Shown: piece by piece, positions 34,372 to 57,500 of the stretch
How the letters are laid out: the number at the start of each line of letters is the position of its first letter
How positions within the stretch are numbered: position 1 is the first letter of the stretch
From: Amoebophrya sp. A120
Lineage: Eukaryota > Protista > Dinoflagellata
Reading direction: 5' to 3'
Assembly: GCA_905178155.1 (NCBI GenBank)
Contig: CAJINV010000019.1
Coordinates: 786,988 to 850,987 of the forward strand
Length of the DNA: 64,000 nt
Program-made: the position numbers and the translations under genes
The notes under the pieces: model-generated
What the model saw: only the letters and a program-made list of their open reading frames with translations
Database searches by the model: none
What the model was told of the DNA's origin: nothing

Positions 34372-37300
34372 CTAGTTCATCTCGGAACAGCACCCATTCG
34401 CGGTTTTTTCCGAAGCTTCCCCGATGGACAGAGTCCGCTTCATACCCGACGAAGAAGGTAATGTCGTGCAGGAGGAACCCATACCCATTTTATTCACTCC
34501 ACTACAACTCCCGCCCGTTCTGTACTTCGTGATCACCATTTCTATGGCGTCGAGCCCCCGCTTGATCTCCGGAAACGACGGCCCGTAGGACAGCCGGACG
34601 AAGCCCGAGTTATTGTGAGGAAAAATCCCCCCTCCCCATATCAAAAAGGTAAGTCGCCGAAAATTTGCAATGCTGATTTGCGACCACAAATCATCTCTGT
34701 CTTGCAAGAAGGCAACTCCACAGGCTCCGCCGCATTATGCAGGCGGTTTGTGATGCTGTTGGGCCTACAGCGCAGACGTTTCTCATGCTAAGAGCCTAGC
34801 TCAAAACCTCTCTACTCAGGCTTGGTATAGACCTGCAGTCCTCTTCAGCAAGACAAATCTGATTTGTGTACGCAAATCCAGCATCACAGACTTCGTTTTG
34901 ATGTGGGGTGGGGGGATTTTTCATTTTGATACGAGTAATTCGAGAACTTCCTGCGATGCCCGGGGTTGACGTCAAAAAACACATATCAAGTGTAAAAGTG
35001 TCGGGGTCTGGAAGAATGCAACTTGTGATGCTGCATTTGGATTCCAACAAACTCTGTATTGCATGAGTACCAAAGGAAATGCAATTTTTGCTACGCTGAG
35101 AAGGCATTTGTCATGCGGAATACGCATCAAGAAGCCCTCAAAAAATCTGTATTGCTAGGGTATGCACCACAGACATCATGGCTCATGCAAAACGTGCGTG
35201 ACAAGTGTCAGAATCTTCCAGACCCAGATATTTTTACAATTCATAACACGCCGGGGCAGACGATGACCTTCCCCTCGTTCAGCATGGTCCGGAAAAACCG
35301 CCTATCAAATGTAAAAATGTCTGGGTCGGGAAGAATGCAACTTGCCATGCTAAATCTGAAGCATGCAAAAATCTGTGTTGCATGATTACCAAAAGTCGTC
35401 CAGTTTTGACCAAGTCGGTAGGGAGTTTCTCATGCAGGATAGGCATGAGAGAGATCGCACAGAATCTGCCATGCTAGGTCCTGCATTCCAGACCTCATGG
35501 GTCATGGAAAAGCTGCATGACAGATCGCGCATTCTTCCAGACCCAGACACTTTTACATTTGATACCCCCAGCAGGTGTTCAACGGAGCCGGTAAACTCGA
35601 GATGTCGCACCAGCAGTAAAACGTCCCCTGCGGCGGGTGTTCCACCACGATGTATGGAAGTGCCAGAATCGAAATTGACAAAATCGAAAAATTTGTGATG
35701 CATAAAATGCATGACGCGGAATACGTGTGTTGCAGAGCAGGCAAGTGAGGCCGATACCGATTGTAAGCCTGTTTGGGGTTATAGCTCGAGCTGCTAAAGC
35801 AACATCATGAGAGAATCGGTCTTCTTTGCCTAAACAGCATTACAAACTGGATTTAGGCACCGCCAGAATTTGTCATGCGCCACTTAGAAACTGGGTTCAA
35901 ACTGGAATCCGTTTTATGCATGACAAATCCTTTCGATTTTGTCGCTTTCGATTCTGACACTCCCATACTATGTTCATCTCGTTTAGCCGGTGCAGGAGGA
36001 AATCCCGTTTGTTATGCATTGCAAAAGTAACGTACTAGTATAAATTGCATTACAAATTTTGGCAAAAAGAAAAGTGGGATTTGTAATGCTGTTTTACTTT
36101 AGGAGGAAGATTTGTCATGCATACTTCGACTACCGGAATTTAAGCACGGGGTCACAATTGTCTTCTTTTTGGGCTTGGTGCGCCAACCCCGCATCGCTTG
36201 CGTTTGTGCCTGTTTTTGCACCTTTTTGCGTGCCTGATTTTCCGCCTGTTTCTGTAGCTGTTTCTGTGCCTGTTTTTGCGGCTGCGCCTGTTTCAGTGCC
36301 CCCCGAGCCGCCACATTCATAGAAGAGGGCACTTTAAGTGCCAAAGTGCCCTCTTCTATGATAGTGTCTGGTAGGCACATGCATAGCACAACGCCGGGCC
36401 GTCTACAAAGCACGCTCACGCACGCAGCGCCTGCCTGCCGCAAAATGGCGCGCGGAAGGGCATCGCAAAAGATACTCCGGGGGCGCTGAATGAATCTGAC
36501 ACAGAATAGGTGCCCGGCAATCCACCTCTTCGGGCATGCCTCTACTCATCCGCCACAGGGCCTCCCAGCGCTGCAGAGCCCGCTGCGCCTTGAATTGCCG
36601 GGGTCGACTGCTGGCTCTGGGTCAGCTTCTGCAACAACTGCTCTGTCCTTTTGTTTGCACTAATCCATTGGGAGCGAAGGGCAACACTCGCACAACCGAC
36701 CACCCAACCAGCCAACTCCCCCTCTTTGTTGCTAGAAGTCCTGCTGGGCCGACATCTTACTAAAAGCAAAGAGAAAGATACCTGCTAAGAGACGGCCACT
36801 CCGTGGCGAATAAAGTTCTACAAAAATATTTGCACTTCAGAAGCATGGTCGTTCCCGATCATATCCGCCGGGGCTGGCATCCCGGCTGCTGACTTCAGCA
36901 GGCTGCTTACTTTCTGCTTCCTTTGACACGGACGAACAAGGGTGGGTTACATCTGCTTTTTTTCAAAAAGGTCTAACCCCCGCTAGTGGGTGGGCACTAG
37001 CGGGGGTTAGCTTCGGACGAATGTAACCCACCCTTGTTCATTTGTTCTAGGATGAACAAAGGTGGGTTACATTCGTCTGACCCTAACCCCCGCTAGTGCC
37101 CACCCACTAGCGGGGGTTAGAACTTTTTGGAAAACAGACAACCTAGCCCACCCTTGTTCGTCGGATCCAAATCATGGCGCTTCACATCGCCGGGTGGGCT
37201 CCGGCGATCAGAGTCGGCGAGCCTCCAAAGACATCAACTACAGAAAACATCTGCAGCGTACCACCCAGAATAAAGTGTTCCGCCATGGTATGGGGCGCGG

Positions 37301-40300
37301 ATTAATATCGCGCACCAGGCCATGCTGCAGAGCCCTACTCCCGACGGAAAACTAAAGGGCTAAGAGCGAAGTTCGCGCCCGCCATGCCGCGCGAAGGGTG
37401 AAATGGGACTGGGCACAACAAGTCACGACACAGTACCTTGAGCCAAAAGCCTCCCACTGCAACACACTTGACATCGATTTCATAATCCACAAGTCTCAAT
37501 AAGCGACGCTTCAGGTTGACATCAATGCTCTGAATGCCGAAAACCTGTCGCGCCAGATCTGCACACACTTAATTGAGACTTGTGGACTAAAAGATCAATG
37601 TGTCAAAGCTTGCGATGTCGGCATTTTGGCTCAAGGTACAATGGCGTGAGTTGCTACGCCCAATCCCTTTTCACCCCTCACGCGGATTGACAACCACAGC
37701 GACGCACCCAGGGGCCGCCCGCGTGGAGGACACGCATGCAGAAATTTTTGGCCCCCTAGGTACCACCGGATAAGTGCTTCTCTGTTCCCTCAGCACGAGC
37801 GGCTTTATCCAGCATTTTACTTCTCCATGTGATGCCGCTTTTTCGCCTTGTTTCGCGCCCTAGTTTTTCTGTTTGTGATTTTTCAAACCGAAGCAACTGC
37901 CACGACCTACTTGCGGCCGCGCTTTGCCCTTTGGTTTTTGCGCTGGAACCCGCGTCAAAAAGTAGAATTGTGACCCCGTGCGTAAATTGAGGCTTTTGAA
38001 GTATCTGCTGCAATTACTACGAGTACGATACTTTTGCACAGGATACTTGTGGCTGAAGAGCAACTGCAGGAGGATGGTTTGCTCCACGACGATATCAACT
38101 GTAAAAATGTCTGGGTCTGGAAGAATGCGCGATTTGTCATGCTGCTTTTCCATGACCCATGAGGTCTGGAATGCAGGACCTAGCATGACAGATTCTGCGA
38201 GACCTTTCGAATGCCTATCCTGCATGAGAAACTACCTCCCGACCTGGTCAAAACTGGACGACTTTTGGTAATCATGCAACACAGATTTTTGCATGCTGCA
38301 GATTTAGCATGACAAGTTGCAGTCTTCCAGACCCAGACATTTTTACATTTGATAGACGAGCTTCGGGTTCAGCAGCGGCACCAAGGCCCGTTGCGTTGGT
38401 AGAGATGGTCCCCCGTCGAGAAATATCAAATGCAAATATGTCTGGGTCGTCTGGAAGATTGCAAGACTTGTGATGCAGATCTCGATGACCCATGACGTCG
38501 GGCATGCAGGACCTAGCATGACAGATTCTGTGAGCAGACCTCTAGCATGCCTATCCTGCATGAGAAATTGCCCCTGAACTTGTCCAAAAGTGGACATCTT
38601 TTGGACATCATGCAACACAAACTTTTGGCACGATCCAGATTTAGCATGACAATCAAGCTGCAACCTTCCAGACGCCAGACATATTTGTAATGCATAAGAA
38701 AGGACCCCGCGGCCCCCACCGCTTCGATAACCTGGTATCCTGTGCAAAACTATCGTACTCGTATTGCAGTCATGCATTTACAAATCTCTCTCTTAAGGTA
38801 AATCAGCATTACAAATTTTATTTCTCATGCTAGGGAAATTTGTAATGCATTTATACGAGTACGATACTTTTGCAATGCATACCTGCCGCGGGCCGACGAT
38901 CCAGCAGACGCGCAACCCCGGCATGCGCCAGTTCTTGGTCAGACCATCGAGGAGGATCACCGGGTCACTGTTCACATCGTCCACGAACTGCGCGGCGGAA
39001 ACCATGCGCCAGTGCGCGTCGGAGGGCGCCATACGCTGCGTGTAAACATACCTGTAAATTTGTATTGCATAGCATGCATGATTATACTAGCGAAAATTTG
39101 TCATGCATGCACGTACCTGAGAAAAATTTATGTCATAATTATGCAGCTCCTTTTGTGGATTATTCATTTTGCTTGAGCAGGAGTCCGAATGCATGAACAA
39201 ATAGACGGCGCAAACATGCACACATTTCTCCTGGTCGTAGATCGATATCTGGATTGCATTTCTATTTGCAATGCAAAAAAAATGTCATAATAAATTACCT
39301 CGAATAGATCTCGTCGATAACCAGCGAGCACTGACATTCCCTTGCAATCCGGACCCAATTCTTCAATTCTTCCCCCTCGACCAACTGCCCCGTCGGGTTG
39401 CACGGATTCGAGAACAGCAACGCGCCCAACCCTTTCCCCACAATCTCCCGCCGGAGTTCCTGTAGCGTCAACCGAAAATTGTTCTCCGGATTCAACAAGA
39501 TCGGAATCGAGTTGATTTTTCCGGTCAAGGAAAATTGGGACAGCAATTCCGTGTACGCCGTGTAGTCGGGCAAAAAATGCCCGAGATTGATCTGGTCCAT
39601 GGCGGCAATTAACCGCGTCAGCGCGAGCCGCCCGCCGCCGACCAGTGCGACGTTCTCCGCTTGGTACAGCGATTGCTTCCCCTTGCGGTACATGTCATTG
39701 TAGAACTTCGCGACCGCGCGCCGGAGCGCCAAATCCCCGTTCACGTTCCCGTAGTGTAAATTTTCCGGGGTCACCTCGAGCTGTTTCAAATCCTGGTCCC
39801 ACGGGCCCTGGATGTGCTCGCTGGGGCCGAAGTTGTGGCTCGCGTTGTTGTGGAGGTGGGCTGCCGGGTTGCTGGTCTGCGCCGCGCAGGAGGGCAGTTT
39901 TCCCGCCTCGATCAATTCCTTGATTCGGTTCCGCACCGACGCCGGCCAGTGCTTCGGTAGCGACGTTTCCGGCGACCCCTGGCCCAAGTTGGCCCACTCG
40001 TGCGCGGTCTGGGCGGAATACCCGACCTTCGCGGCTTCGTCCATCACGTAGATGACGCCCGTTTTCGGGACTTGCCGGAAACCCGGGATCAACCGGTTAT
40101 TTGTCGAACTGGATTTATTCTGCGTCGGTCCGTCCAGGGTCGTGGTGGACGATTGCTGCTGTCGATCTTCCTCGTCCGAGTCCATGGCTAAATCTCGATG
40201 TTGCGACGAAGTAGATCCACTGTTGTTCTTGGTCAGACTGTTGCGCGGACCACGATCTGCTGCACCTCCGGAGGTTGACCCGCAATCGGAGGTGTTGCTG

Positions 40301-40866
40301 GTCATCAAACCGTTTTTAATATCAGCCGCGGAAGAAGAATTTGCGACTGGTTTCGGTGGTAGCGCAGCCTTTCGTCGGACCTGGTACTGTGTGGTTGTCA
40401 CTTTCGTCGTGATTCTAGTGGGGGAGACAGTACCGGAAAGAACGGAGTCATACTCTTCCTCGGGCGTTCCATTATTCTTGTTCCCGGATTGTTCCGGAGA
40501 CATGTTGACATAGTTGTTGACTTTCTGACGATTTTTGCTAAAGGTCGTCTCCACGGTTGTGCAATCGTACGACCCCGGCGCGCGAACTTCCAACTCGTCA
40601 ATCCGGTACAACACGCGCACCACCCAATCCAGATCAGAGGTGATTTGCTGCACCCGCTTGAAGTTGGCGATGACGGCGACGTCGATCCAGCCGGTACAGT
40701 CGTTCTCTTCCGACCCGTGTAGTTTCTCGCGCAGCCAGGTGTCTTTCCACAGGTTTTTGTCGCTGAAGTAATACTCGAGCTGCCGCTGCAACCGCCACTC
40801 GTCCGCAGAAAGCTGCTCCGCGGGCTTCGCGGGGGACGCGGTTGTGGTCATGTGGTCGGGGGCCAT
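34372..40866 (-). CDS. La-motif + PLP-dependent class I/II aminotransferase fusion; 10 exons
   Basis: QLEYYFSDKNL..GWIDVAVIANFKRV (La motif); NLGQGSPE, FSNPCNPTG, VIDEIYS, DGLTKNWRMPGLRVCW (PLP Lys), PQGTFYCWCD, CPGVFFD, FVRLSYG recovered in one frame after removing 8 introners and 1 GT-AG intron. Confidence 0.92.
34611..34931. mobile_element. Introner family E
   Basis: TIRs; perfect direct repeat cgagt. Confidence 0.9.
34984..35245. mobile_element. Introner family A
   Basis: TIRs; direct repeat acaca/acacg. Confidence 0.9.
35303..35564. mobile_element. Introner family A
   Basis: TIRs; direct repeat ccgcc/ccccc. Confidence 0.9.
35653..35967. mobile_element. Introner family F (TIR TATGGrAGTGyCAGAATCGAAA)
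   Basis: TIRs; direct repeat cgatg/ctatg; homologous to 57904-58208. Confidence 0.9.
36317..36361. repeat. Perfect 19-bp hairpin
   Basis: tcatagaagagggcacttt-aagtgcc-aaagtgccctcttctatga. Confidence 0.9.
36931..37162. repeat. Nested palindrome: two inverted ~110-bp arms, each itself a hairpin
   Basis: Each arm has gaacaagggtgggttac...gtaacccacccttgttc (or a close variant) around ctaacccccgctagtg-ggtggg-cactagcgggggttag. Confidence 0.9.
37401..37458 (-). ncRNA. Dinoflagellate SL RNA-like gene (diverged copy)
   Basis: agtgggaggcTTTTGGCTCAAG|GTACtgtgtcgtgacttgttgtgcccagtcccattt; 3' 12 nt of DinoSL plus GTAC donor. Confidence 0.6.
37486..37500 (-). promoter_or_regulatory. Candidate SL RNA upstream element ATTGAGACTTGTGGA
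   Basis: Identical 15-mer ending 27 nt before both SL-like exons. Confidence 0.5.
37572..37586 (+). promoter_or_regulatory. Candidate SL RNA upstream element ATTGAGACTTGTGGA
   Basis: Identical 15-mer ending 27 nt before both SL-like exons. Confidence 0.5.
37614..37671 (+). ncRNA. Dinoflagellate SL RNA-like gene
   Basis: gatgtcggCATTTTGGCTCAAG|GTACAA: 18/22 match to DCCGTAGCCATTTTGGCTCAAG, Sm-like ATTTTGG in the exon, GT donor, GGCGT/ACGCC stem, TTTT end; 58 nt. Confidence 0.75.
38093..38354. mobile_element. Introner family A (opposite orientation to 35303-35564)
   Basis: TIRs; perfect direct repeat gacga. Confidence 0.92.
38424..38696. mobile_element. Introner family A
   Basis: TIRs; perfect direct repeat agaaa. 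Confidence 0.9.
38736..38881. mobile_element. Introner family B
   Basis: TIRs; direct repeat cctgg/cctgc, which supplies canonical CAG|GT...CAG|G ends on the gene strand. Confidence 0.92.
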
Positions 40867-41654
40867 TTTGCGCCACAAGACTCCTCAGTGAAGAGCTCGA
40901 GAAGAAAAAGGAAGGGATATTGGTTATATGGCAACAAGTACCTGCTGAGCTCCAAAATGCGAGCTTGACCTTGAAATTGAAAATTGTATCTATCAGTAGT
41001 TTTTGTATCTATCGACCGTCGTCTACTTTTTCGTTGCAAACGGAAGAGGAAACCTCCAGAAGTTGCAGATTCTACACTCGAAATAAAATGATATTTGACA
41101 CTTGTTTGAACTTCTGCTTGCGATTGGATGAGTTACGCAATTAAGCGATGGCGCTAGTAGTACGAACTAGAACTTTCAATTTTCTCATAATCTTGCACTT
41201 TGAATTGAATTCCACCAATTTTATTTTTGGCATCTCTCAGAAATGGAGGTTGACACATTGACATTGCGTTGAAATCGGAATCAGAGCTACTTCTTTTACT
41301 GGTTTGCATTTTGCAATTACTGTTTCCGTTTTGGATCATCCGGAAGTGTGCATGTACTAGCTTCCACTCTCTTCAACAGTTCCGTCAGTCTGACACGGGA
41401 TCTGGGAAATGATCTTCCTTATCTCCCCGAAATACTTGCGTCGCAGCTGTCTATTCCTGCCCCTCGTCGACATATCGTGCTACAACGAACTTCAAATGGT
41501 GAACAGATACAACTTATCCAGGAGCATGAACCACTCAACAAGAGGTCACCCCTGAGGGAAGGGATCCATGAAGAGCGTCGTCGTGAAAGATATCAATGGA
41601 TCAAGATCATGATGATCCTTACCAAAAAATTAAAATCATTTAGGCACAAGAAAA

Positions 41655-44649
41655 CTATTCCGGCGGAGGTTTCTCTTGCCAACAGACCACTCCATCCACA
41701 CAATCTCTAATGATCTCGAGCCCCGCGCGGTGGACGTCCGGCGCTCCGGACCTTGCCAAAGTTATAACCCGCTCAGGTGTTACAATCTCAAACGTTACAA
41801 TAGAATCTGGAATTTGTGTTGCAAGAAGTGCATTATCTAGCTTACTCCCATAGGATTGCGCATGACAAGTTCTGGAGTCCCAATCCGCACTACAATCTGG
41901 CGAAATTTGTATTGCAGATAGTGGAATGCTGTCCGAGTCTGTCATGCTCGTCATGCAATACAAAACCCAGATTCTATTGTAACGTTTGAGATTGTAACGT
42001 TTGAGCGGGTCATAAAAGTGTAGTTCTTTTTGTCCGCATAGACCTCTAAGAACGACTGCGGGGTCCACAAGTTCTTCGCTTTTGCCTTACAGCTGTCGTC
42101 GTCGATCATGTCAATAGTCACCCCGTAGATTTTGTCGAGCGGCACTTTCGCCTCCTCAAACAGAAACCGCACTGCGGAATAGGTTTCTCGGACCTGCGCG
42201 ATAGGCAGCAACCCGGTAAGTTCGTAAACAGTCCGTGGGCAGTGCTTTCTTGGAAACAGGAGCCCCGGACAGTCCATCACGACCAGTTGCTGGTCGGCGT
42301 CTTTGTCTTTGTTTTCGGCTGAAGTGATGTTCTTAGGCTCTTCACCTCCTGCAGGACCACGCGTGGCATCGTCTATGATTTCGCCAGATTTTTTCTGATC
42401 ATCTGACGCCTCAGCGCCATGATCCAATTTTTGCTGCAAATAATTGACTTGGTCGACAACCTTATCTCCGTTATTTTCACCGCGGATCTCCGGCGTGAAG
42501 TCCAAGTCGTTGTTTTTGTTTTTCGCTCGTCTCCGCTTGTTTTTCTGCTTCTGCCGGTTTCCCTCCGCTGTGCTTAAAGTCGGGGCGGACACGTTTTTCG
42601 TCTCTGTAGTTTCATCAGGTCCTCCTGGTGTCATTTTAGACGCGGCGCCGGCCACACGACCTCCCGCCCCGGAAACGCCGCTTTTCTGCAGTTCCCGGTA
42701 GTCGGTGCGCATTTCGTTTTTCATTTTCTTCATCTCAGATTTCGAGAGGTTCTCGAAGTTTTGCACCTGCTGCGCCACAGACACAGAGGGGAGCACTGCT
42801 GTTATTGGGCCATCAATCGTGGTGGCTTGCGCTTGGCCGCCCTGTGGGGACTTTGATTTGTTTCTTTTCATCTCCTTCTGCAGTTCAACCTGTTTCTCAC
42901 TGTCTAGAAAAATGTGCTGCACATGTTTGGTGTGCCCTGCGGTCCGCGACACGCTCAGTCGGCGAACGCCGAGAATCGCGTTCAAGAGGCTGGACTTCCC
43001 GACGTTCGGGTGGCCTAAGCAGCCGATGGTGATTTTGTTTGTGCTCTTGTCGTGTGGTCCGCCGCGTTTTGGTTTTGGTCGGTCAACGGCTTGCTCATCG
43101 CCGGACAAAACTACCGCAGATGATGTTGTAGTTGACAATTCAATCGCTTTATCCACAATGGCGTTCGCGTATGCGTCCACTTTTTTCCGCACGTCGACCT
43201 TTTTCCCGGCAGGCGGGTTCTTGAGCCGTTTTCTCCGGAAGTTCGCCCCGATATTCTCCACGAATGCTTCGTGGGATTCTTCGTCTAAATGCGGTTGCTT
43301 TGTAAACGGAAACACCGCGGCGAATTCTGGTAGATCGAATTTATGAAACTGCTCACCACTTTGACTTTCATCTCCTATAGCAGGACTTCTGGCCGCCTTA
43401 GTCCTGGTGAAGAACTCCCGCCACTTTTCGAAATCAGCAGTGCTGATCAAATCTACTTTCGTCAACACGAGAAGCAGCTGCTTCCCTTTCACGGCCTCTT
43501 TACTCAAGAACGGGATGTGCATCAAAGGGTTCCGCGCGTCCGCACAGAGGATCAAGACCGTTGACTGCTCGGTCGTGCGCCACAGCTGCCGCCACACGTC
43601 CAGGTTGTATTCGACAGGAGGGATGCTGGTGTAGTACGCGTAATTATTTGATGTTCCTGCGTTATAATTATTAACGGTGGCGTCGTTCGCTTTAGAGATG
43701 TGTTCTCTCGTCGCTTTACACCACGTTGCGAAAGCGAGTTCTTCGGCAGATTCGAGCTCTTCCTTCGTGAGTAAATTCGAGGTTGTAGGCCGGAGCGGGA
43801 AGGGGAGGGCAGAGCCGATGTATTTGCATTTGGAGGAACAAGGTGAATTTGTGCTTGCAGGTCCTGCTGTGCGTGTTGTGGTAGAAGTTGTAAAATCGCC
43901 CGACGTATCAAATGCAAAAATGTCTGGGTCTGGAAGATTGCTACATTTGTCATGCTTGTCTGACATGACTCAAGAATCTGTGATGCATGGGCACGCAGTG
44001 GCCCTCTTGCCTGTCATGCAAAAACGCAGTTTGCCATGAGGAACACGCAACACACAGGAGCCCAAAAATTTGTCATGCTTGGCTTCGTATTGGAGTGGAA
44101 CTCGCATTCACTCTTAGCATCACAAGTTTCCAGACCCAGACATATTTGCAATGCATACGACGACGCCGCAGCTCCACCGGTGCCCACTTCTAAGATTCCT
44201 GCCGCACCACCACCCCCGGCGTGACCCTTAGCATCTTCACTGCTCGTCGCGTTCTCAAGTTCATCTTGTTTGATTCGTCCAGCATCTTCACTAAAAGTTC
44301 TACTTGCAATTATCTTTATCTCCTTGTCTGCAAACTCTCTTCTCTTCTGCACCAGTTCCGTTTCCTCTTTTTCGAAAATGGAGGAAATGATCGCTTTTTT
44401 CTTTCCCAGTTCCAACGTGATCGCCTGCCCGAAGGACTTCACCAGCTCGGGGAGTTTTTCTTCGGCTTTGGAGGCTGAGGACCTGATGGATGACCCTGTT
44501 CCAGAAGACCGGCGCGGTAATGGTTGCGGCGGTTCTTTGTCTTTCTCCCCGGGGCTGTTCGACGCTCTACCTCCCTGCTGCGGCGGGGAGGAGGTGCTGC
44601 TTGGGGGAGATAAGTAGGAGCTACTCGCGTTCTTCTTCTGGTCTGCCAT
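41655..44649 (-). CDS. GNL1: GNL1/LSG1-like circularly permuted GTPase (YlqF/YawG family); at least 3 exons, start uncertain
   Basis: EYNLDVWRQLWR, DARNP, TKVDL (G4), GHPNVGKSS (G1), SRTAGHTK (G2), DCPGLLFP (G3), PIAQVRE, GAPDVHRAGLEIIRDCVDG. Confidence 0.85.
41763..42014. mobile_element. Introner, family C-like (TIR TATrACCCGCTCA...GTTACAATCTCAAACGTTACAATAGAATCTGG)
   Basis: ~45-bp TIRs; perfect direct repeat aaagt. Confidence 0.92.
43906..44157. mobile_element. Introner family A
   Basis: TIRs; perfect direct repeat cgacg. Confidence 0.92.
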
Positions 44650-46166
44650 GGCTTTGATGTAAGCGCTAGACGACGGGATGTGCATCTTCAACATACGAAT
44701 TAGAACAGAAGGAAGGGAAAGACAAAGAAACTTGATTGGAGCAGATTATGTCATCACTTTACGATTATAGATGAAGGTGAAAGAATCAGGAGGGCCACAC
44801 GTCGCTTTTTATTCTATACTGTGTTTATATTGCGGGAAGCAGGGGGGTATATGTAGTCGCTTTTGGTGTACTAGGTGATAGGGTAGAAAATCTTCTCGAG
44901 GGGCGTGCTATAGACCTTCCTGGAAGCGATATGGGCTCGAGCAGCTCGCTCAGCGAATAATAAAATCACACTGGCAAAAATAGCACTACTTGGGACGGCC
45001 GGCATGATAGGAATGAGCTTGTTAGCCTCAGGTCGTGCCACGAAGTTCTGTTATTTATATTTTCAAGGAATTACCCTCAACATTATTTGCGAAATGGAAA
45101 TTCTGTTTTCCATTTTAAGCTGCTACTTATGCAACCGAAACCGATCTTTTTTTTTGTTGAAATCGTATGTATGACTATGAACTATGAAGATCCACCTCTG
45201 GTTGCAGCCTGCCAAAGTAAAGACTTCAGACTCCTTCACCACCAGAGAGGTGTAGGTCAGAGAACAGAGTTCGGCCTCAAGAAGAGTAGAATTTGCGTTG
45301 ACATTGGCAATCAACATCGCCCCTGTTGTTCCTGCTGGCTCCTTCCTTGAAAAATGCAAGGAGCGCGGCGTCGTAGGCTTGTTGAAGACTATCGACCCAT
45401 GAAGAAAACTTTCGTGATGCAAAATCAAGAAGGGGTCCATGGTGCTCAAGTTACAGCAACATGACTCATTGTTTTTTGAAGATGAAGATTGGCAACCGCT
45501 CCTTTACCGACATCAGAATCGAAATTGCGGAGGAGGTGGAGCACCGCGCACCTTTTGTTTTTCACTTTTTCTCGCCCTTTCGTAGTTATTGTATGAATTC
45601 TTTTTGAAAAAATTCTGGCACACATCGATTCTCACTCTTTTGAAAACTAGAAAGAGCATCAACATGTGCAACGTCACTCACTGCTGTGCCAATAGAGTTG
45701 TTTTTTTAATTTGGTTCACACAAAATACTTGCACTTGCACATGCAACAATTTTACAAAAAGTAGTGAAGACTGAGATTCGTAACTACTTGCAATAGAAAA
45801 TACTGAAACTGAAGACCACTGCTCCCGCACCCGCATACATTTGTTGAAAAATTTCTTGGCTTGCGTTTTGGCACACATCGTCCCCATGACGAGTATTATG
45901 AGTACACTACTTACACTACGACAGAAACAACTGCAATGAATCAGCATGACTTGATGAGGTGAAACGTCGTCCGCAGACCGCCACAGATTTCTTGCTGTCA
46001 AGCGTCGTCACATGCGCAGCATGCCGATTGATTTACGTTTGATTTACGTTTGCCCTTGCCCTTCCTCAGCTACAGAAAGCTATGATGGCAATACGAGTAC
46101 GATACTTTTGCACAGGATAGTGACTGGCCGCCGTCGATCCCTCCCGCACGGTAACTTTTATTGCCT

Positions 46167-46426
46167 GATCAAATGCAAAAATGTCTGGGTCTGGAAGAGA
46201 TGGGACTTGTCATGCACATTTTGCATGACCCGTGAGGTCTGTGATGCTGGTGCTAGCATCACAGATTTTTTGAGAGCTTCTTGATGCTAATTACGCATGA
46301 GAAATGCACTCTCCGCGTGCCAAGAGCTGACTCCTCTTGCTGCTCATGCAACACAGATATTTTTAGAATCTGCAGACAGCATTACAAGTTGCATTCTTCC
46401 AGACCCAGACACTTTTACATTTGATA
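46167..46426. mobile_element. Family A element in the duplicated unit (left end GAT, no clean direct repeat)
   Basis: A-type TIRs. Confidence 0.8.
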
Positions 46427-46538
46427 TTCGCTACAGAAAGCTCAAATTCAGGTCGTCCATTTTTTCAAACCGCATCACCATTGCGTGACTGGCTGGCGTC
46501 GATCCCTCCTGCCTTTCGCCCGCTACAGAAAGCTCAAA

Positions 46539-46790
46539 TATCAAATGTAAAAGTGTCTGGGTCTGGAAACTTGTGATGCTGGGTGGCGTCTCATGATGAG
46601 GCCACAAGTGCTGGCTCAACATGACAAGTTTCTGAGCTTCTAGGTGTTGCCTATTCTGCATGACAAACTGCGTTTCTGCATCACAGAAAAACTGGGCTAT
46701 TGGGTGACGTGCATGACAGATTTAAGAGTCATTCCAGACAAGCATGACAAACATGCATTCTTCCACACCCAGACACTTTTGCATTGGATA
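46539..46790. mobile_element. Family A element, duplicate of 47403-47654
   Basis: TIRs; direct repeat tcaaa. Confidence 0.9.
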
Positions 46791-46838
46791 TCAAATTCAG
46801 GTCGTCCATTTTTTCAAACCGCATCACCATTGCGTGAC

Positions 46839-46983
46839 TATGAACTGCAAAAGTATCGCACTCGTATAAATGCATTACAAATTTCCTCAGCATGAGAGAG
46901 AAAATTTGCAATGCGGATTTACCTTAAGACAAAGATTTGTAATGCATGATGGCAATACGAGTACGATACTTTTGCACAGGATA
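46839..46983. mobile_element. Family B element, duplicate of 47703-47851
   Basis: TIRs; perfect direct repeat gtgac. Confidence 0.9.
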
Positions 46984-47030
46984 GTGACTGGCCGCCGTCG
47001 ATCCCTCCCGCACGGTAACTTTTATTGCCT

Positions 47031-47290
47031 GATCAAATGCAAAAATGTCTGGGTCTGGAAGAGATGGGACTTGTCATGCACATTTTGCATGACCCGTGAG
47101 GTCTGTGATGCTGGTGCTAGCATCACAGATTTTTTGAGAGCTTCTTGATGCTAATTACGCATGAGAAATGCACTCTCCGCGTGCCAAGAGCTGACTCCTC
47201 TTGCTGCTCATGCAACACAGATATTTTTAGAATCTGCAGACAGCATTACAAGTTGCATTCTTCCAGACCCAGACACTTTTACATTTGATA
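47031..47290. mobile_element. Family A element, duplicate of 46167-46426
   Basis: A-type TIRs. Confidence 0.8.
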
Positions 47291-47386
47291 TTCGCTACAG
47301 AAAGCTCAAATTCAGGTCGTCCATTTTTTCAAACCGCATCACCATTGCGTGACTGGCTGGCGTCGATCCCTCCTGCCTTTCGCCCG

Positions 47387-49867
47387 CTACAGAAAGCTCA
47401 AATATCAAATGTAAAAGTGTCTGGGTCTGGAAACTTGTGATGCTGGGCGGCGTCTCATGATGAGGCCACAAGTGCTGGCTCAACATGACAAGTTTCTGAG
47501 CTTCTAGGTGTTGCCTATTCTGCATGACAAACTGCGTTTCTGCATCACAGAAAAACTGGGCTATTGGGTGACGTGCATGACAGATTTGAGAGTCATTCCA
47601 GACAAGCATGACAAACATGCATTCTTCCACACCCAGACACTTTTGCATTGGATATCAAATTCAGGTCGTCCATTTTTTCAAACCGCATCACCATTGCGTG
47701 ACTATGAACTGCAAATAGGTATCGCACTCGTATAAATGCATTACAAATTTCCTCAGCATGAGAGAGAAAATTTGCAATGCGGATTTACCTTAAGACAAAG
47801 ATTTGTAATGCATGATGGCAATACGAGTATCAGATACTTTTGCACAGGATACTGACTGGCCGCCGTCGATCCCTCCTGCACGGTAACTTTGATTGCCTCA
47901 TGTTGGTCCTGAACGTCAGCAGCATGTGGGCCCTGATGCGGTGCTGGTGTTCTGCTACCAGGTGGTCCGTCTGAAGATGCTCTTGCAACACTACCTAGAG
48001 CAGGACGTGGTCGAATGACATACCCGCTACCCACCGCATCTCGTAAAAACTTCAGCATTTTTGTATTTCGTTGGCCGTAGGGAACGAGAATCGCAACGTA
48101 GGCTGCAATTGGCTCACTTCTTCCAGTTGCAGCACGACTAGTTGTTCCGGTGCCGGCAACCTCCACATCTTCGTCCAGCTTCAGCAACTGCGCCCAGTTT
48201 TCCAGTAATCTTTTCGCGGATTGGTCCGACACCAGAAACCCACCGCACGTCTTCCTCCCCTGCTGGTCACAGTCGCACAGCATGTCCTGGAGAAACAGCA
48301 GGGACACTTGGTTCTCCAGCTCGGGCAGGACACAGCAGGAACTGGCGCTTCTACACTGCTCGCCTGCCGTGTTCATTACGTCAAACCGTTCTTGCGAGGA
48401 CCTCTTTTCTTCTCCTTCGCAGCTTAGGCAGAACTTTTTGTTGTCCAGAATCAAATCTAAGCTGCTTCTGCTGTATCTCTTCGTCAACCCGGTTCTGATG
48501 TGGCGGATATTGGAAGAGGGCGCAAACATCAGCTGCTCGCTCTGATTCACGTTTCCACATGGGCACAATTGTTCCATCGGCGAGAGTTGCGGGACACCGC
48601 CAACGTCCAGGAGGTAAAAGGTGGACTTTTTCTGTTTATCGTCCCCATCCTGCAACACACGATGATGATCCTGGGGACCACCACCATAATAGTGCCTCTC
48701 CACCCAACGCTGAATCCGGACCGACAGATCTTCGAAAGGACGACCGTAGTAGCCCACACTAGTATCCGTTGCTCGTTTCGCAAGCACCAAGCCGCGAGAA
48801 AAATCAGTCGCAGGCCTGACACTTTTATGCTCCTCGTCCGCTGTGCCAAGCAGGGCGTCCAGCAGGGCTGAGAGTGGATCTTGCAGTTCGGGCACCTCTT
48901 CTTGGTCCTCAGCCAAAGAAACTCTTGAAGATGGCAGCGCTGGCGGAAGGTCTGTCTCGTCCTGGTAAACAGCAGTTGCAAAAAACGGAGATATTGAAGA
49001 TTTTCCAAGTTCTTGTAGATCGTCTGTCTCACTAGATGAGTCTTCAGGAGATGAAACTTCGCGGCCAGTCTGCGTCATGCCGCAAAAAGCAGATTGCTGG
49101 ATTCTTGTTGATGAGACCACAGGACCACACTCCGCCTCTGCTTGTCGTGAAGACGAGGACGCTTTGCGCTTGTTGCCACCGCGAGTGCTGCTTCTACTTC
49201 TCTTACTACTCCTAGAACTTCTATTCGAAGTTTGCCGACAAAAGGCCGCCGCCGCCCCTAAAATCGGCGGTGCTTTTCCGTCTAAGACTTCCGAAGATGA
49301 GGCTTCGTCGCTGCTAGCGGAGGGAAGGGCGGTGGATTTCGTGAGTTTTCGCGTATCGTGGTCGGATTTGAACTCATCGTCTTCGTTGGCACTACCTTCA
49401 ACATGATCTTCCCCGAGCACATGCCACGAAGAACCAATCGCACCCGCATGTTGCGACGTCACTGAAGATGGAGTTCTAGTGGAGACCGAGCCGAAACTGC
49501 GGTGGCGCCGGAGAAAATTATCCGCGGGGGATGATGAGACACTTAGTACTTGTTCGGGTTGATATTCATGGTAGGTAGGAGCTGCGGGCACACCACGGGG
49601 CCCGATCGGCAACCATTTTGATACTTTGCTGGAGGTTGCGCTTTGCTCCTCGTCGACTTCTCGTGTTGCGGCTCCTGACCAGGGCTGTTGTTGGGCGGAC
49701 ACTGGAGGGGCAGGCATTTCTTTAGATGAGCCAGGGATTTTCGTTTGCGCTGCAGAGACCGCTCGGAAAAGAAGGCACGGGGTGGTGGTCGTGTCCCGCC
49801 TGAACGCGACGGCGATAACTGCAATGAAGGACCGTGTCGCCCGGCGAAATGTTGACATCTTGTTCAT
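47387..49867 (-). CDS. Hypothetical protein (hydrophobic N-terminus, Ser-rich region, possible SAM-methyltransferase-like domain); 3 exons ending DDLNLSFL*
   Basis: 704-codon ORF plus two short exons across introners; FYLLDVGG resembles methyltransferase motif I (weak). Confidence 0.65.
47403..47654. mobile_element. Introner family A
   Basis: TIRs; perfect direct repeat tcaaa; empty site visible at 47293-47375. Confidence 0.95.
47703..47851. mobile_element. Introner family B
   Basis: TIRs; direct repeat gtgac/ctgac; empty site visible at 47293-47375. Confidence 0.95.
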
Positions 49868-50441: not shown

Positions 50442-53400
50442 TCAAACTCGATTTTTTCCGCGATAATCAACATCTGTTTCTTTTTCATAGGGTGCTTCAT
50501 CATCTTCTTCGTCTTTCTCTTTTTCCACACAACAAAACGGATCGCAGGAGGACGCCTCATCACCCTCCTGCGGCCCGAGAATCCACGGGTGGTAGTAAAA
50601 CGCGGGGACTACACGTCGACCACGACGATCATGATTCGCTTGCAGTGCCGTAGATGTCACTTTCATCTTGTTTGGATTGCAAGTTTTCGCGCCCCCAGGA
50701 CTCATCTTTTCGTTTTCTCCGACGACATTATCACTCCTCGCATACAACTTTCTGCCGCGAGCTGAAGGTCTCGATCCCTTGCTTGGGGTGGAGTCCGCAT
50801 GGTTAATATCCGCTTCGTTCATGCCATTCACGTGCAGCTCATCTGCGGTGTTGCGGTTCTTGTCCTGATTGTCTTCTTCATCAACCCCAACGACAAGGTC
50901 TTCTCCACCAGCACCCCCAGCAGATGAAATCGACCCGCAATTCATCACGACAACTTCCTCCGCCTCCCCGCGCATGTTCCCGTTTCTTAAGCGGGTCCTA
51001 CACCAGCGCAAAGGGCAGAAAAAAGCGACAAGATTCAGTCTCCACCCCCGGCTGAACGGAGAGCCTTTCGCTTGTTTGAAGTCCTTCAAATATGTGACTT
51101 TGTGCCACGTATGCATTGCAAATATATCTGGGTCTGGAAGAGTGTAAACTTGTCATGCAGGTTTTCGATGACCCTTGAGGTCTGGAATGCGGGACCTGCC
51201 ATGACAGAGTCTGTGAGGTCTCTAACTCTATCATGCCTATCCTGCATGAGAAACTCCCTCCCATCTTGGTCGAAAGTGGACAGCTTTTGGCAGTCATGCA
51301 ACACAGATTTTTGCATGATTCGGATTTAGCATGACAAGTTGCAATCTTCCAGACCCAGACATTTTTGCAATCCATACCACGTCGTCGCCTCCCAGGTGGT
51401 GAGGTTCGCGAAAACCAAATAGGTTTGAAACCCGAGCAACGCGCCCACCATCAAAAGGAACACAAGCACCAGCGTAACAGCGGTCATCAGGAGGAGAAAC
51501 GGCGTGCGCATTCCGGCCAGTTGTGCTTGGACGATTGCAGTACCAATAGTACTAGAGGATGCTGCTCCTGGTGCTCGTGCTCCTATGTGCGGCGTGAGAA
51601 CATTTGCAGGTGCCAATGTGTGCTGGTGGAACTGGTCACCGTAGTACGGTACTGAGGTCGACATCAAACCTTTGTGATCATCCAGTCCTCGGACTAAAGC
51701 ACTTGCAGAAGACGCTGATGCTCCTAACATCAAACTGCTTGGGTGAACTACGGGTGAAATACCTGCGCTCGACACCGCTCCCGTGGCTGCGGCTGACATC
51801 CCCCGTCCATGCAGCATTTTCCCGGCCAGATTGCTCGCGTGGTCACTGTATCAACTGTAAAAATATCTGGGTCTGGAAGAATTCATGTTTGTCATGCTTG
51901 TCTGGCATGAGTCTTAAATCTGTCATGCACGTTACCCAAGAGCTCCGTTTTTCTGTGATGCAGAAGCGCAGTTTGTCATGCAGAGTAGGCAACACCTAGG
52001 AGGAGCTCAGAAACTTGTCATGCTGATCCAGCATTTGTAGCCTCATCATGAGACGCCACCCAGCAACAGCATCACAAGTTTCCGGACCCAGACATTTTTA
52101 CTTTTGATACACTGTAAGATGAACCCGTGTTGTACACCGTTTTTCTGGGCCTAGCGGTCGCACTGGTGATCCCACGACCGGATGAACTGAGCCAGGATTT
52201 CGGCCGAAAAGCGTAAATCACCAGCGCCTTCAATCCGTAAAACAAAAACTGGAGCAATTCGAGGAACTGGAAGAAGAGAAAAAAGTAGAACGATCTCCGG
52301 TTCCATTCCCCGACACAATTGCCAATCCAAGGACAGTAGTGATCATACAGCAATACGCACCGCTTGCTGTCCCGACAGTGCTTGCTGCGCAAGGGCTGGT
52401 ACAGCTCGCAAATCTCGCAGTAGCGGAGACCGTTTGCGTTTGATGCGGGCTCCTTGTGCTGGATCTTTCTTCCCATTTCTTCGTGGTCCAGACTGCCAAC
52501 GGGCGGTGCCTGCTTGGCTTTCGTCAGACTGGATGCAGGTCGGATGACGTCGCTATCTTCATCTGCGTCGATTTGTGTATGGAAAAAAATGTCGAAGTCG
52601 CTATTGACCTGTTTCATCTCGGCCTGATTGACATTGATGTCGGCGTGCAGACAACTACTGCTCCCATGTATCATCAGAAATCATTCTGCCGAACAACTGG
52701 AACTGTATACATTTCAGCTCGTCGTCGTTTTGAAATTCAATCATAGTGCTTGTGACGGTACTAACACTGAGACTGACGGTGAGTAGGAGTACTAGTTGCC
52801 ATGAAGAAATATAGCTACCGCACCACAGGTCGTCGACAACAGATTGTTCTACTCGATTCATACAGCGCCGCTCGATGGGGTTTCCGCATCTGCAGCGGCG
52901 GTTAATACTATCCCCGCCGTAGTTGCCGTTGCCCTCTCCCTGAAGCGGTTGGCGTCCATGTCGAGCACGACATGTTCTTGATCCGCCTCGTGGGTCATTT
53001 CTGTAAGCTCCAGCTCGCCCCCCGGTCCACTTGTTATACGTGTTCTTCCAGGCGAAAGTGCATGTAGCTTTCCCTCGCCGGTGTCCTGGCTCCTCGCGAC
53101 CACGTCGTCCACATGATCATCCTCGACAACCGCGACAAGCTCGTAATTATGCTTCGACGTTCCATCAAGATGTTGCGGCGGTCCTCTCGTAGTACGGTGC
53201 ACCAGCATGCCCAAAAGAATCAGAAACGGGTTCACGCCCCCACTTCCCACGGTCGGAAAGTTTTGCGTCGGGACAAAGCCCGGATCCGCCCAACTGGCGG
53301 AAAAATAGAAGAAAATGGTCAAGAGCATCAAGGGAAGCCAGGGAGGTAGTACGACGTCTATTTGTGGTAGAGGAAAGAAGAAACTAAGCAGGTGGTCGTG

Positions 53401-54530: not shown

Positions 54531-57500
54531 TCATCTCCAAGCCATCACATTTCCATTCCCGATCCCGCCCCCACCCGCTGTTGGCGTTGCGCTGCTATTC
54601 CCATTGCTGTAGTTGCCCGTGTTGCTCCGGCCTCGCGCGCCGCCGCTCAAGCTCTTCCGCATCTCGGCAATGGAATTGGGAATCGGAATCGCGCTGCTGA
54701 TGCTGTTATGAACTGCAAATATGTCTGGGTCTGGAAGAGTCCTCGGGGCTTGTCATGCACATGTTGCATGACCCGTCAGGTCTGTGATGCTGGTGCTAGC
54801 ATCACAGATTCTTTGAGAGCTTCTTGATGCTAATTACGCATGACAAATGCCCTCTCCGCGTGCCAAGAACTGACTCCTCTTGCTGCTCATGCAACACAGG
54901 TATTTTTAGAATCCGCAGACAGCATTACAAGTTCCACTCTTCCAGACCCAGATGACATTTTTGCATTTGATAGCTGTTGTAGCTGCCGATGAGTTGCTTC
55001 GGCGAACTGTTTGACGGTGACATCGCGCGCTATCCTGTGCAAAAGTATCGTAGTCGTACTCATTGCAGTATATGCATGACAAATCTTCTTTTCAAAGTAA
55101 AACAGCATGACAAATTCCATTTCTCATGCTGAGCAAATTTGTATATGCAATTCGCACTAGTAGGATACTTTTGCAGTTCATACGCGCGGCGGGGCAACAT
55201 CAATCCCCGACGGCACAGTTATTGGCGTGATCGTATGATGAGGATCATGGTGTAGCAGTCCATGATCCGCTCCTGCTCCCGCCCTGTACGCCGCCCCAGC
55301 ACTGGACGTGGTGTTTCCCAACGCTCGCGGCGGCGGGGGCTGGGGCTCCAACGGGGGATAAGGGGAGTTGGAAATAATTTTCGGCGCCGGGGTTGCAGCG
55401 CGCGTCAGAAGATGATCAGTGGTTGATGTGCTGCCCCCGAAGATGTTGTTGTTCATACGACTACTAGAAGATCCTGGTCCGACTACATGATTAATCTCAT
55501 CGGAAGTTGTACCACCTTGCTGGTGTTGCAGGTGTTTCGCAGCATGGGAATTCGCGCCGGGAGTCGTCGTGCTTTGGGAAGTAGAAAAACCTCCTGTCAG
55601 TGTTCCGGTCGTGCTGTTTTGTTTGCCTAGCAGAGCGGCATAGACGTTTTCCCGAGGAGGTTGATGTGGTTGGTGAGCACCGGTTTGTGCTTGAAGATGA
55701 TGTCCCGGCAAAAAATAGGAACTGTGTCGTGCCTGCTTTAGTGACCCGTCAACTAGTACATGATCCGCGACGCCTTTGGTAGTTTCTCCCCCGGTCCCTT
55801 GCGGTCGGGAAGTCGTCATCACAGAATTATTGTGTGGTCGCAACGGTTGGGGACGGTCGTTCTCGTAGTCATTCATCACGGCCATTCGTTTGCTGTAGGA
55901 CGACGAGTTGCAGCTGCTGGGGGCAACAGCAGCGGCCGTCTGGAAAGTGGGGTTATAGGAATGCAAACTGTTCGGCTGGTGGCAGCTACTCCGTGGTGGA
56001 CTTGAAATGTTATGTGCTGTTATTCCGTTGATGTTTTCACGAGTACCTCCCCCTACTCCCGTGCAGCTGTCAGCGTAAACAATGTTCCTTTCCCCTGTCG
56101 TAGGAAGATGATCAGAAGATGTTCTGCCAAAACTCACACTATTCCGGTTACAGCTCGCACTGAAATTTCCGCTCGTTCTTGTCGGCGAGGGAGACCGGGG
56201 AACCGCGTTTGCGGCGAGACTCTCCGCGAAACCGACACCAACAGCATTTAGGGCGGCGGTGTTTGTTCTTGCAGTAGGGCTACTAGAAGAACCTCTGCCG
56301 GTTGTACTAAGATTGTTGTTGTTCGAACTATTATTGTTCGACGCCCCGTTATTTGTTATCATCCCCGCCTCGTAACTGTTTGCAGCAGCTGAAGCCGGTC
56401 GGTTTTTCGGCGAGTTCGGATTCTGCTGGCCGCTGGGCATACCATCATGGTTCATTATCATTCCACCACCTCCAGGCGAGGATGATGAACTTTGGTTCGG
56501 CACGTAGTTCTCAAAATGCGCACCGCCCGCATGCACCACGTTCATGTTCCTCCTCGTCGGGGGCCGCCGTGCGGTCACCCGCCGGGTGATGATTGGAACT
56601 TGGGATGGTGCTCCGCCAGGCGGTTGAGGTTGGTGCTGAAGTAGATTGTGTGTCGGTCGTTCTCCTCGCACATGCCGCTGTTGGTGTCCTGGCTGTCCCT
56701 GAAGACCGGCAGTGGAGGGCCTCGCAGTGCCGTTGCCGGCAGTTGCACGCATGGAGGTCTTGTGCGGCGAAAGTTGTTGCTGCTGCTGTTGCTGCTCTCC
56801 TACTCGCCCAGTCGCTGCACGATTCGCCGAGTTATTCCTGGCACTACGACGACGAGACGATTGACTTTGACGCTCTTGTAAATGCTGTTCCATACTACTA
56901 GTCCCAGCTGCATAAGTAGGACCTGCTTTGTTTCCACCCAGCACCTGCTCGTGGTAGCTCGTATAATGCCGGGCCCCTGTACTAGCTGGTGTGGTCGTGG
57001 TCAGGGCTACTGCGCCGGCGGATTGCGACCGTGTTTTTTGTAGCGGCTGCTGCGCACCAGGATGTTGGCCTTCGTCTTCTTGTTCTCTGTCAAAGTTATT
57101 CATCTCCCAAGATGATGAACCTCCTCCAAAAACCGCAGCACCACCTTGTTCATCGAGAAATAGCTCGTGGTCTTCGATTTTCAAATTTTCAAATTCGTCG
57201 CCGCCGCATCCGCCGAAAAAGCCCACATTCGCGAAAGCGCTCGCCGGCATGCTGTAGCGGTTGTTTCGGGGAATCTGCTTGCTGGTCGTGTTCGGAGAAA
57301 ACCAAATTTGCTGATCCACATAGTGATTGCCATGACAAGTGGTATCTGGACAATGATTTTCATTGTGCTGATTCAGCATCGGTGGTGCTGTCGCGAAATA
57401 GTTGTTGTTTCGGGTGTAGGGAATGATCGGGGTTGTCAAGCCCCCTTTGATATTGCTGTGTGAAGCTGATGAAGTACGAGTCGCCCGCCCCGCATGTTTT

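What the first reader, a model, noticed from the sequence alone, without database searches (positions are those of the whole stretch)
47293..47375. Intron-free copy of the last exons directly downstream of the intron-containing gene
Seen: on the minus strand, just after the stop codon, CAGGAGGGATCGACGCCAGCCAGTCAC-GCAATGG...AATTTGA-GCTTTCTGTAG repeats the final three exon segments with both introners (47703-47851, 47403-47654) and one copy of each 5-bp repeat missing. It occurs again at 46429-46511. This directly confirms the element boundaries and the TSD. Inference: either an empty-site duplicate older than both insertions, or an mRNA-templated patch (reverse transcription or RNA-templated repair), which would show the spliced product.
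Basis: partly seen in the sequence, partly recalled or inferred. Interest (0 to 1): 0.72.

Follow-up and report, generated by a model that had tools for sequence, protein, structure and literature searches.

The report
Introner-free duplicate of a gene end
In a marine parasite, an 83-base copy of a gene's last codons lacks the two jumping introns that the gene carries; it is most likely an ordinary local DNA duplicate made before those introns arrived, though a copy written back from spliced RNA is not excluded.

Summary
47293-47375 matches the gene end with both introners and one 5-bp repeat each removed at 81 of 83 bases, and recurs identically at 46429-46511. The gene's protein is identical to an Amoebophrya sp. 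A120 record, and that record's C-terminus implies splicing that restores the empty site. So the junctions cannot tell cDNA from a pre-insertion duplicate. There is no poly(A), no TSD and no UTR. In a related assembly, all 8 introner sites lying well inside local duplicates are filled in one copy only, and two elements are flanked by 75- and 210-bp direct repeats. Best reading (0.55): a DNA duplication, likely tied to E3's insertion, older than both introners, later amplified by unequal recombination. RNA-templated loss (0.22) stays open: two introners are missing at once, the filled form lies on both sides, and divergence dating does not separate the two. A useful empty-site control, probably not a new mechanism.

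The parts
47852..49867 (-). Long coding exon A of the host gene (689-aa protein of unknown function)
   Evidence: 100% identity to P0001, named Amoebophrya sp. A120 in NCBI; contigs of three probable RNA runs cover it down to 47853 in the stretch laid
47703..47851 (-). Introner E1 (149 nt), flanks GTCAG/GTCAC; 7 private differences from relatives against 1 in the second copy, some perhaps assembly errors
   Evidence: X2 record 7
47655..47702 (-). Right TSD of E1 plus exon B (ends in the left TSD of E2)
   Evidence: (family D6)
47403..47654 (-). Introner E2 (252 nt), perfect TTTGA TSD, 5 private differences
   Evidence: two of the five also seen against same-organism contigs
47387..47402 (-). 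Right TSD of E2, exon C and stop codon
47376..47386 (-). Spacer u; joins the copy at a GCA microhomology; with the next 2 bases it matches the terminal flank at 9 of 13 positions
47293..47375 (-). The finding: introner-free copy of the last 26 codons, the stop and 2 nt
   Evidence: 81 of 83 identical to the element-free gene end
47032..47290 (-). Element E3 (259 nt), same TIR family as E2, no 5-bp TSD, terminal A replaced; begins 2 nt after the copy
46168..47031 (-). Second 864-bp unit: 47 nt of exon A (2 private changes), E1, B, E2, C, u, introner-free copy (46429-46511), E3
46082..46167 (-). Third, partial unit: exon A piece plus the first 38 nt of E1
   Evidence: identical to the start of unit 2 for 86 nt
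46045..46081 (-). Exit junction into a last exon C, stop and unique 3' flank
   Evidence: the junction was not tested against reads

Best explanation
The 83-nt piece is an introner-free copy of the gene's last 26 codons inside a tandem array, most likely a DNA-level duplicate made before E1 and E2 inserted. Shown: the sequence match, the array, the TSD-less element E3 directly behind the copy, and another exon A copy directly behind E3. Inferred: (1) E3's insertion, or the repair of a break at it, duplicated about 110-120 nt of the still empty gene end; (2) E1 and E2 later inserted into one copy with ordinary 5-bp TSDs; (3) a microhomology-joined duplication and unequal recombination between exon A copies made the 864-bp repeat and put the filled form on both sides of the empty one; (4) a deletion cut the last unit. 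The copy would then be the pre-insertion allele kept next to its gene, with no RNA step needed.
For: Spliced product and empty site are the same sequence, so the junctions need no RNA. No poly(A), no flanking TSD, the copy stops 2 nt after the stop codon and lies head to tail at its own gene. In loci of a related assembly with the same element families, all 8 element sites lying well inside local duplicates (a ninth lies 6 nt from an edge) are filled in one copy only; in L005 each paralog has its own elements, which a cDNA copy cannot give. Elements without a 5-bp TSD but flanked by long direct repeats occur there: L053 (75 nt) and L045 (about 210 nt). Of 23 duplicate pairs, 5 end within 8 nt of an element, against a null mean of 0.87 (P about 0.002; the 23 were picked by hand from 40). 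Two insertions close together are common: 91 of 283 spacers between neighbouring elements are 100 nt or less (these loci were selected for holding elements). The exon A piece behind E3 differs from the gene at 2 of 47 sites, against 2 of about 670 for the rest of the unit without E1 (Fisher p = 0.02), as if it were older than the 864-bp repeat.
Against: Both elements must be younger than a copy that differs at only 2 of 83 sites, and these 2 may be one slip event; exons B and C are identical while E2 carries 5 of 252 private changes. The likelihood ratio from divergence runs from 0.14 to 2.8, favouring 'after insertion' in three of four settings. The order of E3 against E1/E2 cannot be set (0.30 older than both, 0.25 younger than both). 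Filled units lie on both sides of the copy and the last unit starts E1, so this history needs about five rearrangement steps. Element flanks are not enriched for duplicates overall: 4 of 506 against 83 of 4000 random sites. The comparison duplicates are older (82-96% identity), and each of the short ones lacks one element, not two.
Confidence: 0.55

Rival explanations
1. RNA-templated origin: spliced transcript or its cDNA patched a break, or converted one unit of an already duplicated, introner-filled array, removing E1 and E2 together (perhaps E3 as well, since spacer u reads like the E3 site without E3).
For: Two adjacent introners are missing exactly, at the gene's 3' end; joint loss of adjacent introns is taken as support for reverse-transcriptase models (PMC4256211, passages). 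Filled units flank the copy on both sides. Divergence is compatible with a young copy. A120 is reported to have introners attributed to LTR and non-LTR retrotransposons (PMC12130899, passages), so reverse transcriptases are plausible. mRNA-templated break repair is shown in human cells (PMC12065846, abstract).
Against: No poly(A), TSD or UTR. The known RNA-repair signature is intron deletion in the gene itself, whereas this gene keeps its introners. No RNA-only feature exists in the copy. The reciprocal pattern in L005 shows that the DNA route operates in this lineage.
Confidence: 0.22
2. Precise loss at the DNA level: a filled duplicate lost both elements by transposase excision with repair through the 5-bp repeats, or by polymerase slippage across the folded-out hairpins in one error-prone copying event.
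For: Folded as single-stranded DNA, E1 and E2 pair their ends and bring the two TSDs together (-33.7 and -47.7 kcal/mol; no shuffle control was run). The locus carries several slip-like scars. The X2 contig runs E1 end - B - C - E3 start, which taken literally is a unit with E1 but without E2.
Against: Needs two exact losses. That contig may be a path made by graph simplification through the shared 49-nt exon B (inference from my knowledge of such assemblers). Precise excision by slippage is recalled from bacterial transposons; one search gave no paper that describes it.
Confidence: 0.13
3. Assembly error in part: the real array has another unit number or order (for example E1+/E2- units), and the fully introner-free copy or the exit junction is misbuilt.
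For: The only listed contig over B|C continues into E1; its depth is 3.8 and 5.9 times the gene's in X1 and X2 where the assembled array predicts 2.3 (the tool warns that depth is no copy number). E1 in the gene copy has 7 private differences against 1 in unit 2.
Against: Spacer u and the two changed bases occur only in these two copies within the window and are not something an assembler would make up; the E2-free junction followed by E3 is in the contigs; X2 record 7 carries unit-2 letters across the exon A|E1 junction at about 3 times the gene's depth, matching three such junctions.
Confidence: 0.1

Closest known systems
Introner elements of Amoebophrya A120 (Farhat et al. 2021, PMC7789003; passages, last third of Results, and section 23 read)
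   Same: E1, E2 and E3 have inverted repeats starting with TAT; E1 and E2 have 5-nt direct repeats at the exon boundary and many relatives.
   Different: In the parts read, the paper describes no empty-site copy beside a gene and no element flanked by a long duplication; its supplement was not read.
Empty-site paralogs of transposon or introner insertions (general knowledge; L005, L042, L067, L075 here)
   Same: A local duplicate without the element and with one TSD copy.
   Different: Two elements are missing within 83 nt at 97.6% identity, inside a higher-order array.
Transposon-induced tandem direct duplications (maize Ac/Ds reversed-ends transposition, PMC3744419, abstract)
   Same: Direct copies joined at a class II element, with a second element end close by.
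   Different: There the breakpoints carry the element's own TSD; none is recognisable at E3, and no transposase is known for this family.
Reverse-transcriptase-mediated intron loss and RNA-templated break repair (PMC4256211, passages; PMC12065846, abstract); dinoflagellate retrogenes (search listing)
   Same: Exact joint absence of adjacent introns at a 3' end.
   Different: The gene keeps its introners; the copy is a short tandem fragment with no poly(A) or TSD.

Membership tests
Amoebophrya A120 introner elements (E1, E2) | Terminal inverted repeats starting with TAT | tested here: met
Amoebophrya A120 introner elements (E1, E2) | 3-5 nt direct repeats at the exon/intron boundary | tested here: met
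   TTTGA/TTTGA for E2; GTCAC/GTCAC for E1 in unit 2, one mismatch in the gene copy
Amoebophrya A120 introner elements (E1, E2) | Member of a repeated family | tested here: met
   42-68 distinct full-length relatives in the window and fetched loci, best 88-94%
Amoebophrya A120 introner elements (E1, E2) | Spliced out of the mRNA | tested here: inconclusive
   The database gene model implies it; no read or contig showed the junction
Processed retrocopy | Introns absent at exact junctions | tested here: met
   not diagnostic, because the empty site is the same sequence
Processed retrocopy | Poly(A) tail and 3' UTR | tested here: not met
   The copy ends 2 nt after the stop; 2 A bases and E3 follow
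Processed retrocopy | Flanking target-site duplication, dispersed site | tested here: not met
   Tandem to its gene, joined at a 3-nt microhomology
RNA-templated intron loss | Joint exact loss of adjacent introns | tested here: inconclusive
   Both absent, but loss cannot be told from never having been there
RNA-templated intron loss | Loss of a canonical intron that has no empty site | not testable with these tools
   No canonical intron lies in the copied 83 nt; no whole genome is held
Transposon-induced tandem direct duplication | Element at the junction of direct copies | tested here: met
   E3 begins 2 nt after the copy and is followed by another exon A copy
Transposon-induced tandem direct duplication | Element-type TSD at the breakpoints | tested here: not met
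   No 5-bp repeat at E3 and its terminal base is changed; so it is filed as working like this class, not as a member

The most novel reading that the evidence does not exclude
The copy is a molecular record of introner loss through RNA: a spliced read-through transcript was written back into the gene's own tandem array and erased two, perhaps three, introners at once. This would be a route by which an introner-flooded genome purges its new introns.
Probability: 0.2. Interest if true: 0.7.

Novelty: new member of a known kind. Interest (0 to 1): 0.3.

Why it matters
On the best reading it is a built-in empty-site control: it shows that these introners make a 5-bp TSD, longer than the most common repeat arrangement described for A120, and that the modelled splice restores the pre-insertion codons exactly. 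It also points to a small recurring class of introner-family elements flanked by long duplications. If the RNA reading were true, it would be rare direct evidence for RNA-templated intron loss during an introner invasion, an open question in intron evolution.

Tried and rejected
No whole genome is held and the fetched loci could not be searched as a genome, so there was no genome-wide scan and no ortholog. The search for related loci with P0001 found no relative among 121 pattern matches; the protein search returned only the protein itself among proteins of 369-1176 aa; Pfam and the Atlas gave no usable family. No RNA holder was listed as such. Raw RNA runs X9-X11 laid 7, 2 and 0 reads, all on an element end, so they are no test. 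Contigs of probable RNA runs X3, X4 and X6 stop at 47853 with 6 unplaced letters and none was laid on exon B or on the copy; X2 has no cover over about 47355-47377. These holes prove nothing. A GT-AG reading of E1 in the gene copy would add one codon and does not match P0001. Dating by private differences does not order the events. A general enrichment of duplicates at element flanks was not found. Viral contigs had no match to the element-end pattern. The first comparison was misaligned by 2 nt and was redone. In one search, 7 of 12 hits were elements matching their own ends and were dropped; 5 are real. Paper searches listed no report of such a copy in Amoebophrya; most were seen only as listings, and subscription papers and supplements were not seen.

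Full report
Setting. The ORF at 49867-47852 (minus strand) is identical to P0001, a 689-aa protein that NCBI names Amoebophrya sp. A120; it was the only hit. The window is dense in TAT...ATA elements with terminal inverted repeats and mostly 5-bp flanking repeats, matching the A120 introners described in PMC7789003 (passages and the last third of Results). No whole genome is held.

Observation. Removing each with one 5-bp repeat gives 83 nt that match 47293-47375 at 81 positions, and 46429-46511 is identical. The two changes lie in one codon and create a 4-base tandem repeat, so they may be one slip event (inference). Of 29 window elements, picked by hand from the list after dropping nested and cross pairings, only the four E1/E2 copies have an empty-site junction elsewhere in the window.

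The junctions cannot show RNA. The element-free gene end translates to the C-terminus of P0001. So the modelled splice removes the element plus one repeat and restores the pre-insertion sequence; cDNA and empty site are the same letters. P0001 is a gene model, not a read. My own read tests did not show the spliced junction.

On the minus strand the order is: exon A, E1, B, E2, C with stop; 11-nt spacer u; introner-free copy; 2 nt; element E3 (47290-47032); then 47 nt of exon A, E1, B, E2, C, u, copy and E3 again (period 864); then exon A, 38 nt of E1, a jump to a last exon C, and unique flank. E3 has no 5-bp TSD and a changed terminal base. The copy has no poly(A), ends 2 nt after the stop and joins u at a GCA microhomology. 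u resembles the terminal flank at 9 of 13 bases (binomial p about 0.001, after the fact) and also reads like the E3 site without E3.

Is it in DNA? Contigs of X1 and X2 (one sample, possibly the window's source, so not independent) bridge B|C without E2 and run on into E3. In X2 the same contig goes on upstream into E1's end. This is either a path through the shared 49-nt exon B or a real E1+/E2- unit. X2 record 7 spans exon A|E1 with unit-2 letters at about three times the gene's depth, in line with three such junctions, and suggests that some odd letters of E1 in the gene copy (7 private differences against 1) are assembly errors. The 5' junction of the copy and the exit junction were not confirmed.

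Comparison set. A scan with an element-end pattern returned 143 loci (about 635,000 distinct 31-mers) of another assembly with the same element families; they include no ortholog of this gene. Among 399 elements, 12 had an empty-site match in the same locus; 7 were self-matches and 5 real. After stripping elements, 40 local duplicate pairs were found; 8 element sites lie well inside such pairs (L005, L042, L067, L075) and none is filled in both copies; in L005 each paralog has its own elements. Two elements, at L053:11990-12301 and L045:7217-7401, lack a 5-bp TSD and are flanked by direct repeats of 75 and about 210 nt, the geometry of E3. Of 23 hand-picked pairs (dropping overlapping tandem repeats, the L005 pieces and the long inverted L047/L048 duplicates), 5 end within 8 nt of an element; null mean 0.87, P about 0.002. 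Against this, element flanks are duplicated no more often than random sites (4 of 506 against 83 of 4000). Close double insertions are common (91 of 283 spacers at most 100 nt).

Dating. Private differences are 1 of 145 (E1, unit 2), 5 of 252 (E2) and 4 of 259 plus the terminal base (E3). They do not order E3 against E1 and E2 (0.30 against 0.25), and the likelihood ratio of 'duplicate first' to 'made after insertion' runs from 0.14 to 2.8 with the assumptions, below 1 in three of four settings. Dating therefore gives no support to my best reading.

Mechanism. I favour a DNA duplicate older than E1 and E2 (0.55). It needs only events seen in this lineage: duplication beside an element, insertion into one copy, and recombination in a tandem array. 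One history that fits every junction (inferred): E3 duplicates the empty gene end; E1 and E2 enter the downstream copy; a duplication joining the 3' flank to exon A makes u and the 864-bp unit; recombination between exon A copies moves the filled form into the gene; a deletion trims the last unit. The RNA route (0.22) needs four or five steps, one of them rare, but it explains most simply why two introners are missing together and why filled units lie on both sides. Precise loss at the DNA level (0.13) and partial misassembly (0.10) remain.

Relation to known systems. E1 and E2 meet the sequence features of A120 introners. The copy fails the retrocopy tests. The E3 arrangement works like transposon-induced tandem duplications in maize (PMC3744419, abstract) but lacks the breakpoint TSD, so it is not filed there. 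RNA-templated loss is known from PMC4256211 (passages) and PMC12065846 (abstract). Earlier scan notes from other genomes describe filled and empty introner sites in tandem copies; they are unchecked and are not used as support. Verdict: real, a new member of a known kind, interest 0.3, with a one-in-five chance of the more striking RNA reading.

Noticed in passing
window 47261-47292 and 47401-47432: E2's right end and E3's left end, with 2 flanking bases each, form a perfect 32-nt inverted repeat around exon C, u and the copy (-44.8 kcal/mol as DNA). The end variant is common in the family, so this may be chance, but such facing ends could be used together by a transposase.
   Followed up: partly
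L053:11913-12376 and L045:7005-7615: Introner-family elements flanked by 75-nt and about 210-nt direct repeats instead of a 5-bp TSD; L067 and L075 show one-sided versions.
   Followed up: partly
L005:9416-18616: Two tandem paralogs (about 82% identical) with reciprocal introner presence and absence, plus a 165-nt internal repeat with an element in one unit only.
   Followed up: partly
window 47703-47852: E1 in the gene copy has odd letters near both ends and a G at 47852 that creates a GT...AG-looking intron; contigs suggest the unit-2 letters are the common form, so these may be assembly errors.
   Followed up: partly
window 46081-46082: Jump from inside E1 to the last exon C with no clear microhomology; deletion or assembly join, not tested.
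   Followed up: no
window 34611-35967, 38093-38881, 54707-55182, 61331-61849: Clusters of two to four elements separated by short stretches (about 40-90 nt); many window elements have one mismatch in the 5-bp repeat.
   Followed up: no
window 39295-40884 (-): One ORF carries both a La domain and an aminotransferase class I/II domain; neighbours include an MMR_HSR1 GTPase (41951-43969) and a DHHC palmitoyltransferase (52072-52680).
   Followed up: no
L048:3269-5429 and 14926-17086: A 2161-nt perfect inverted duplicate, possibly an assembly artefact.
   Followed up: no
window 15494-15677 and 16002-16233: Tandem arrays with 21-nt and 40-nt periods.
   Followed up: no
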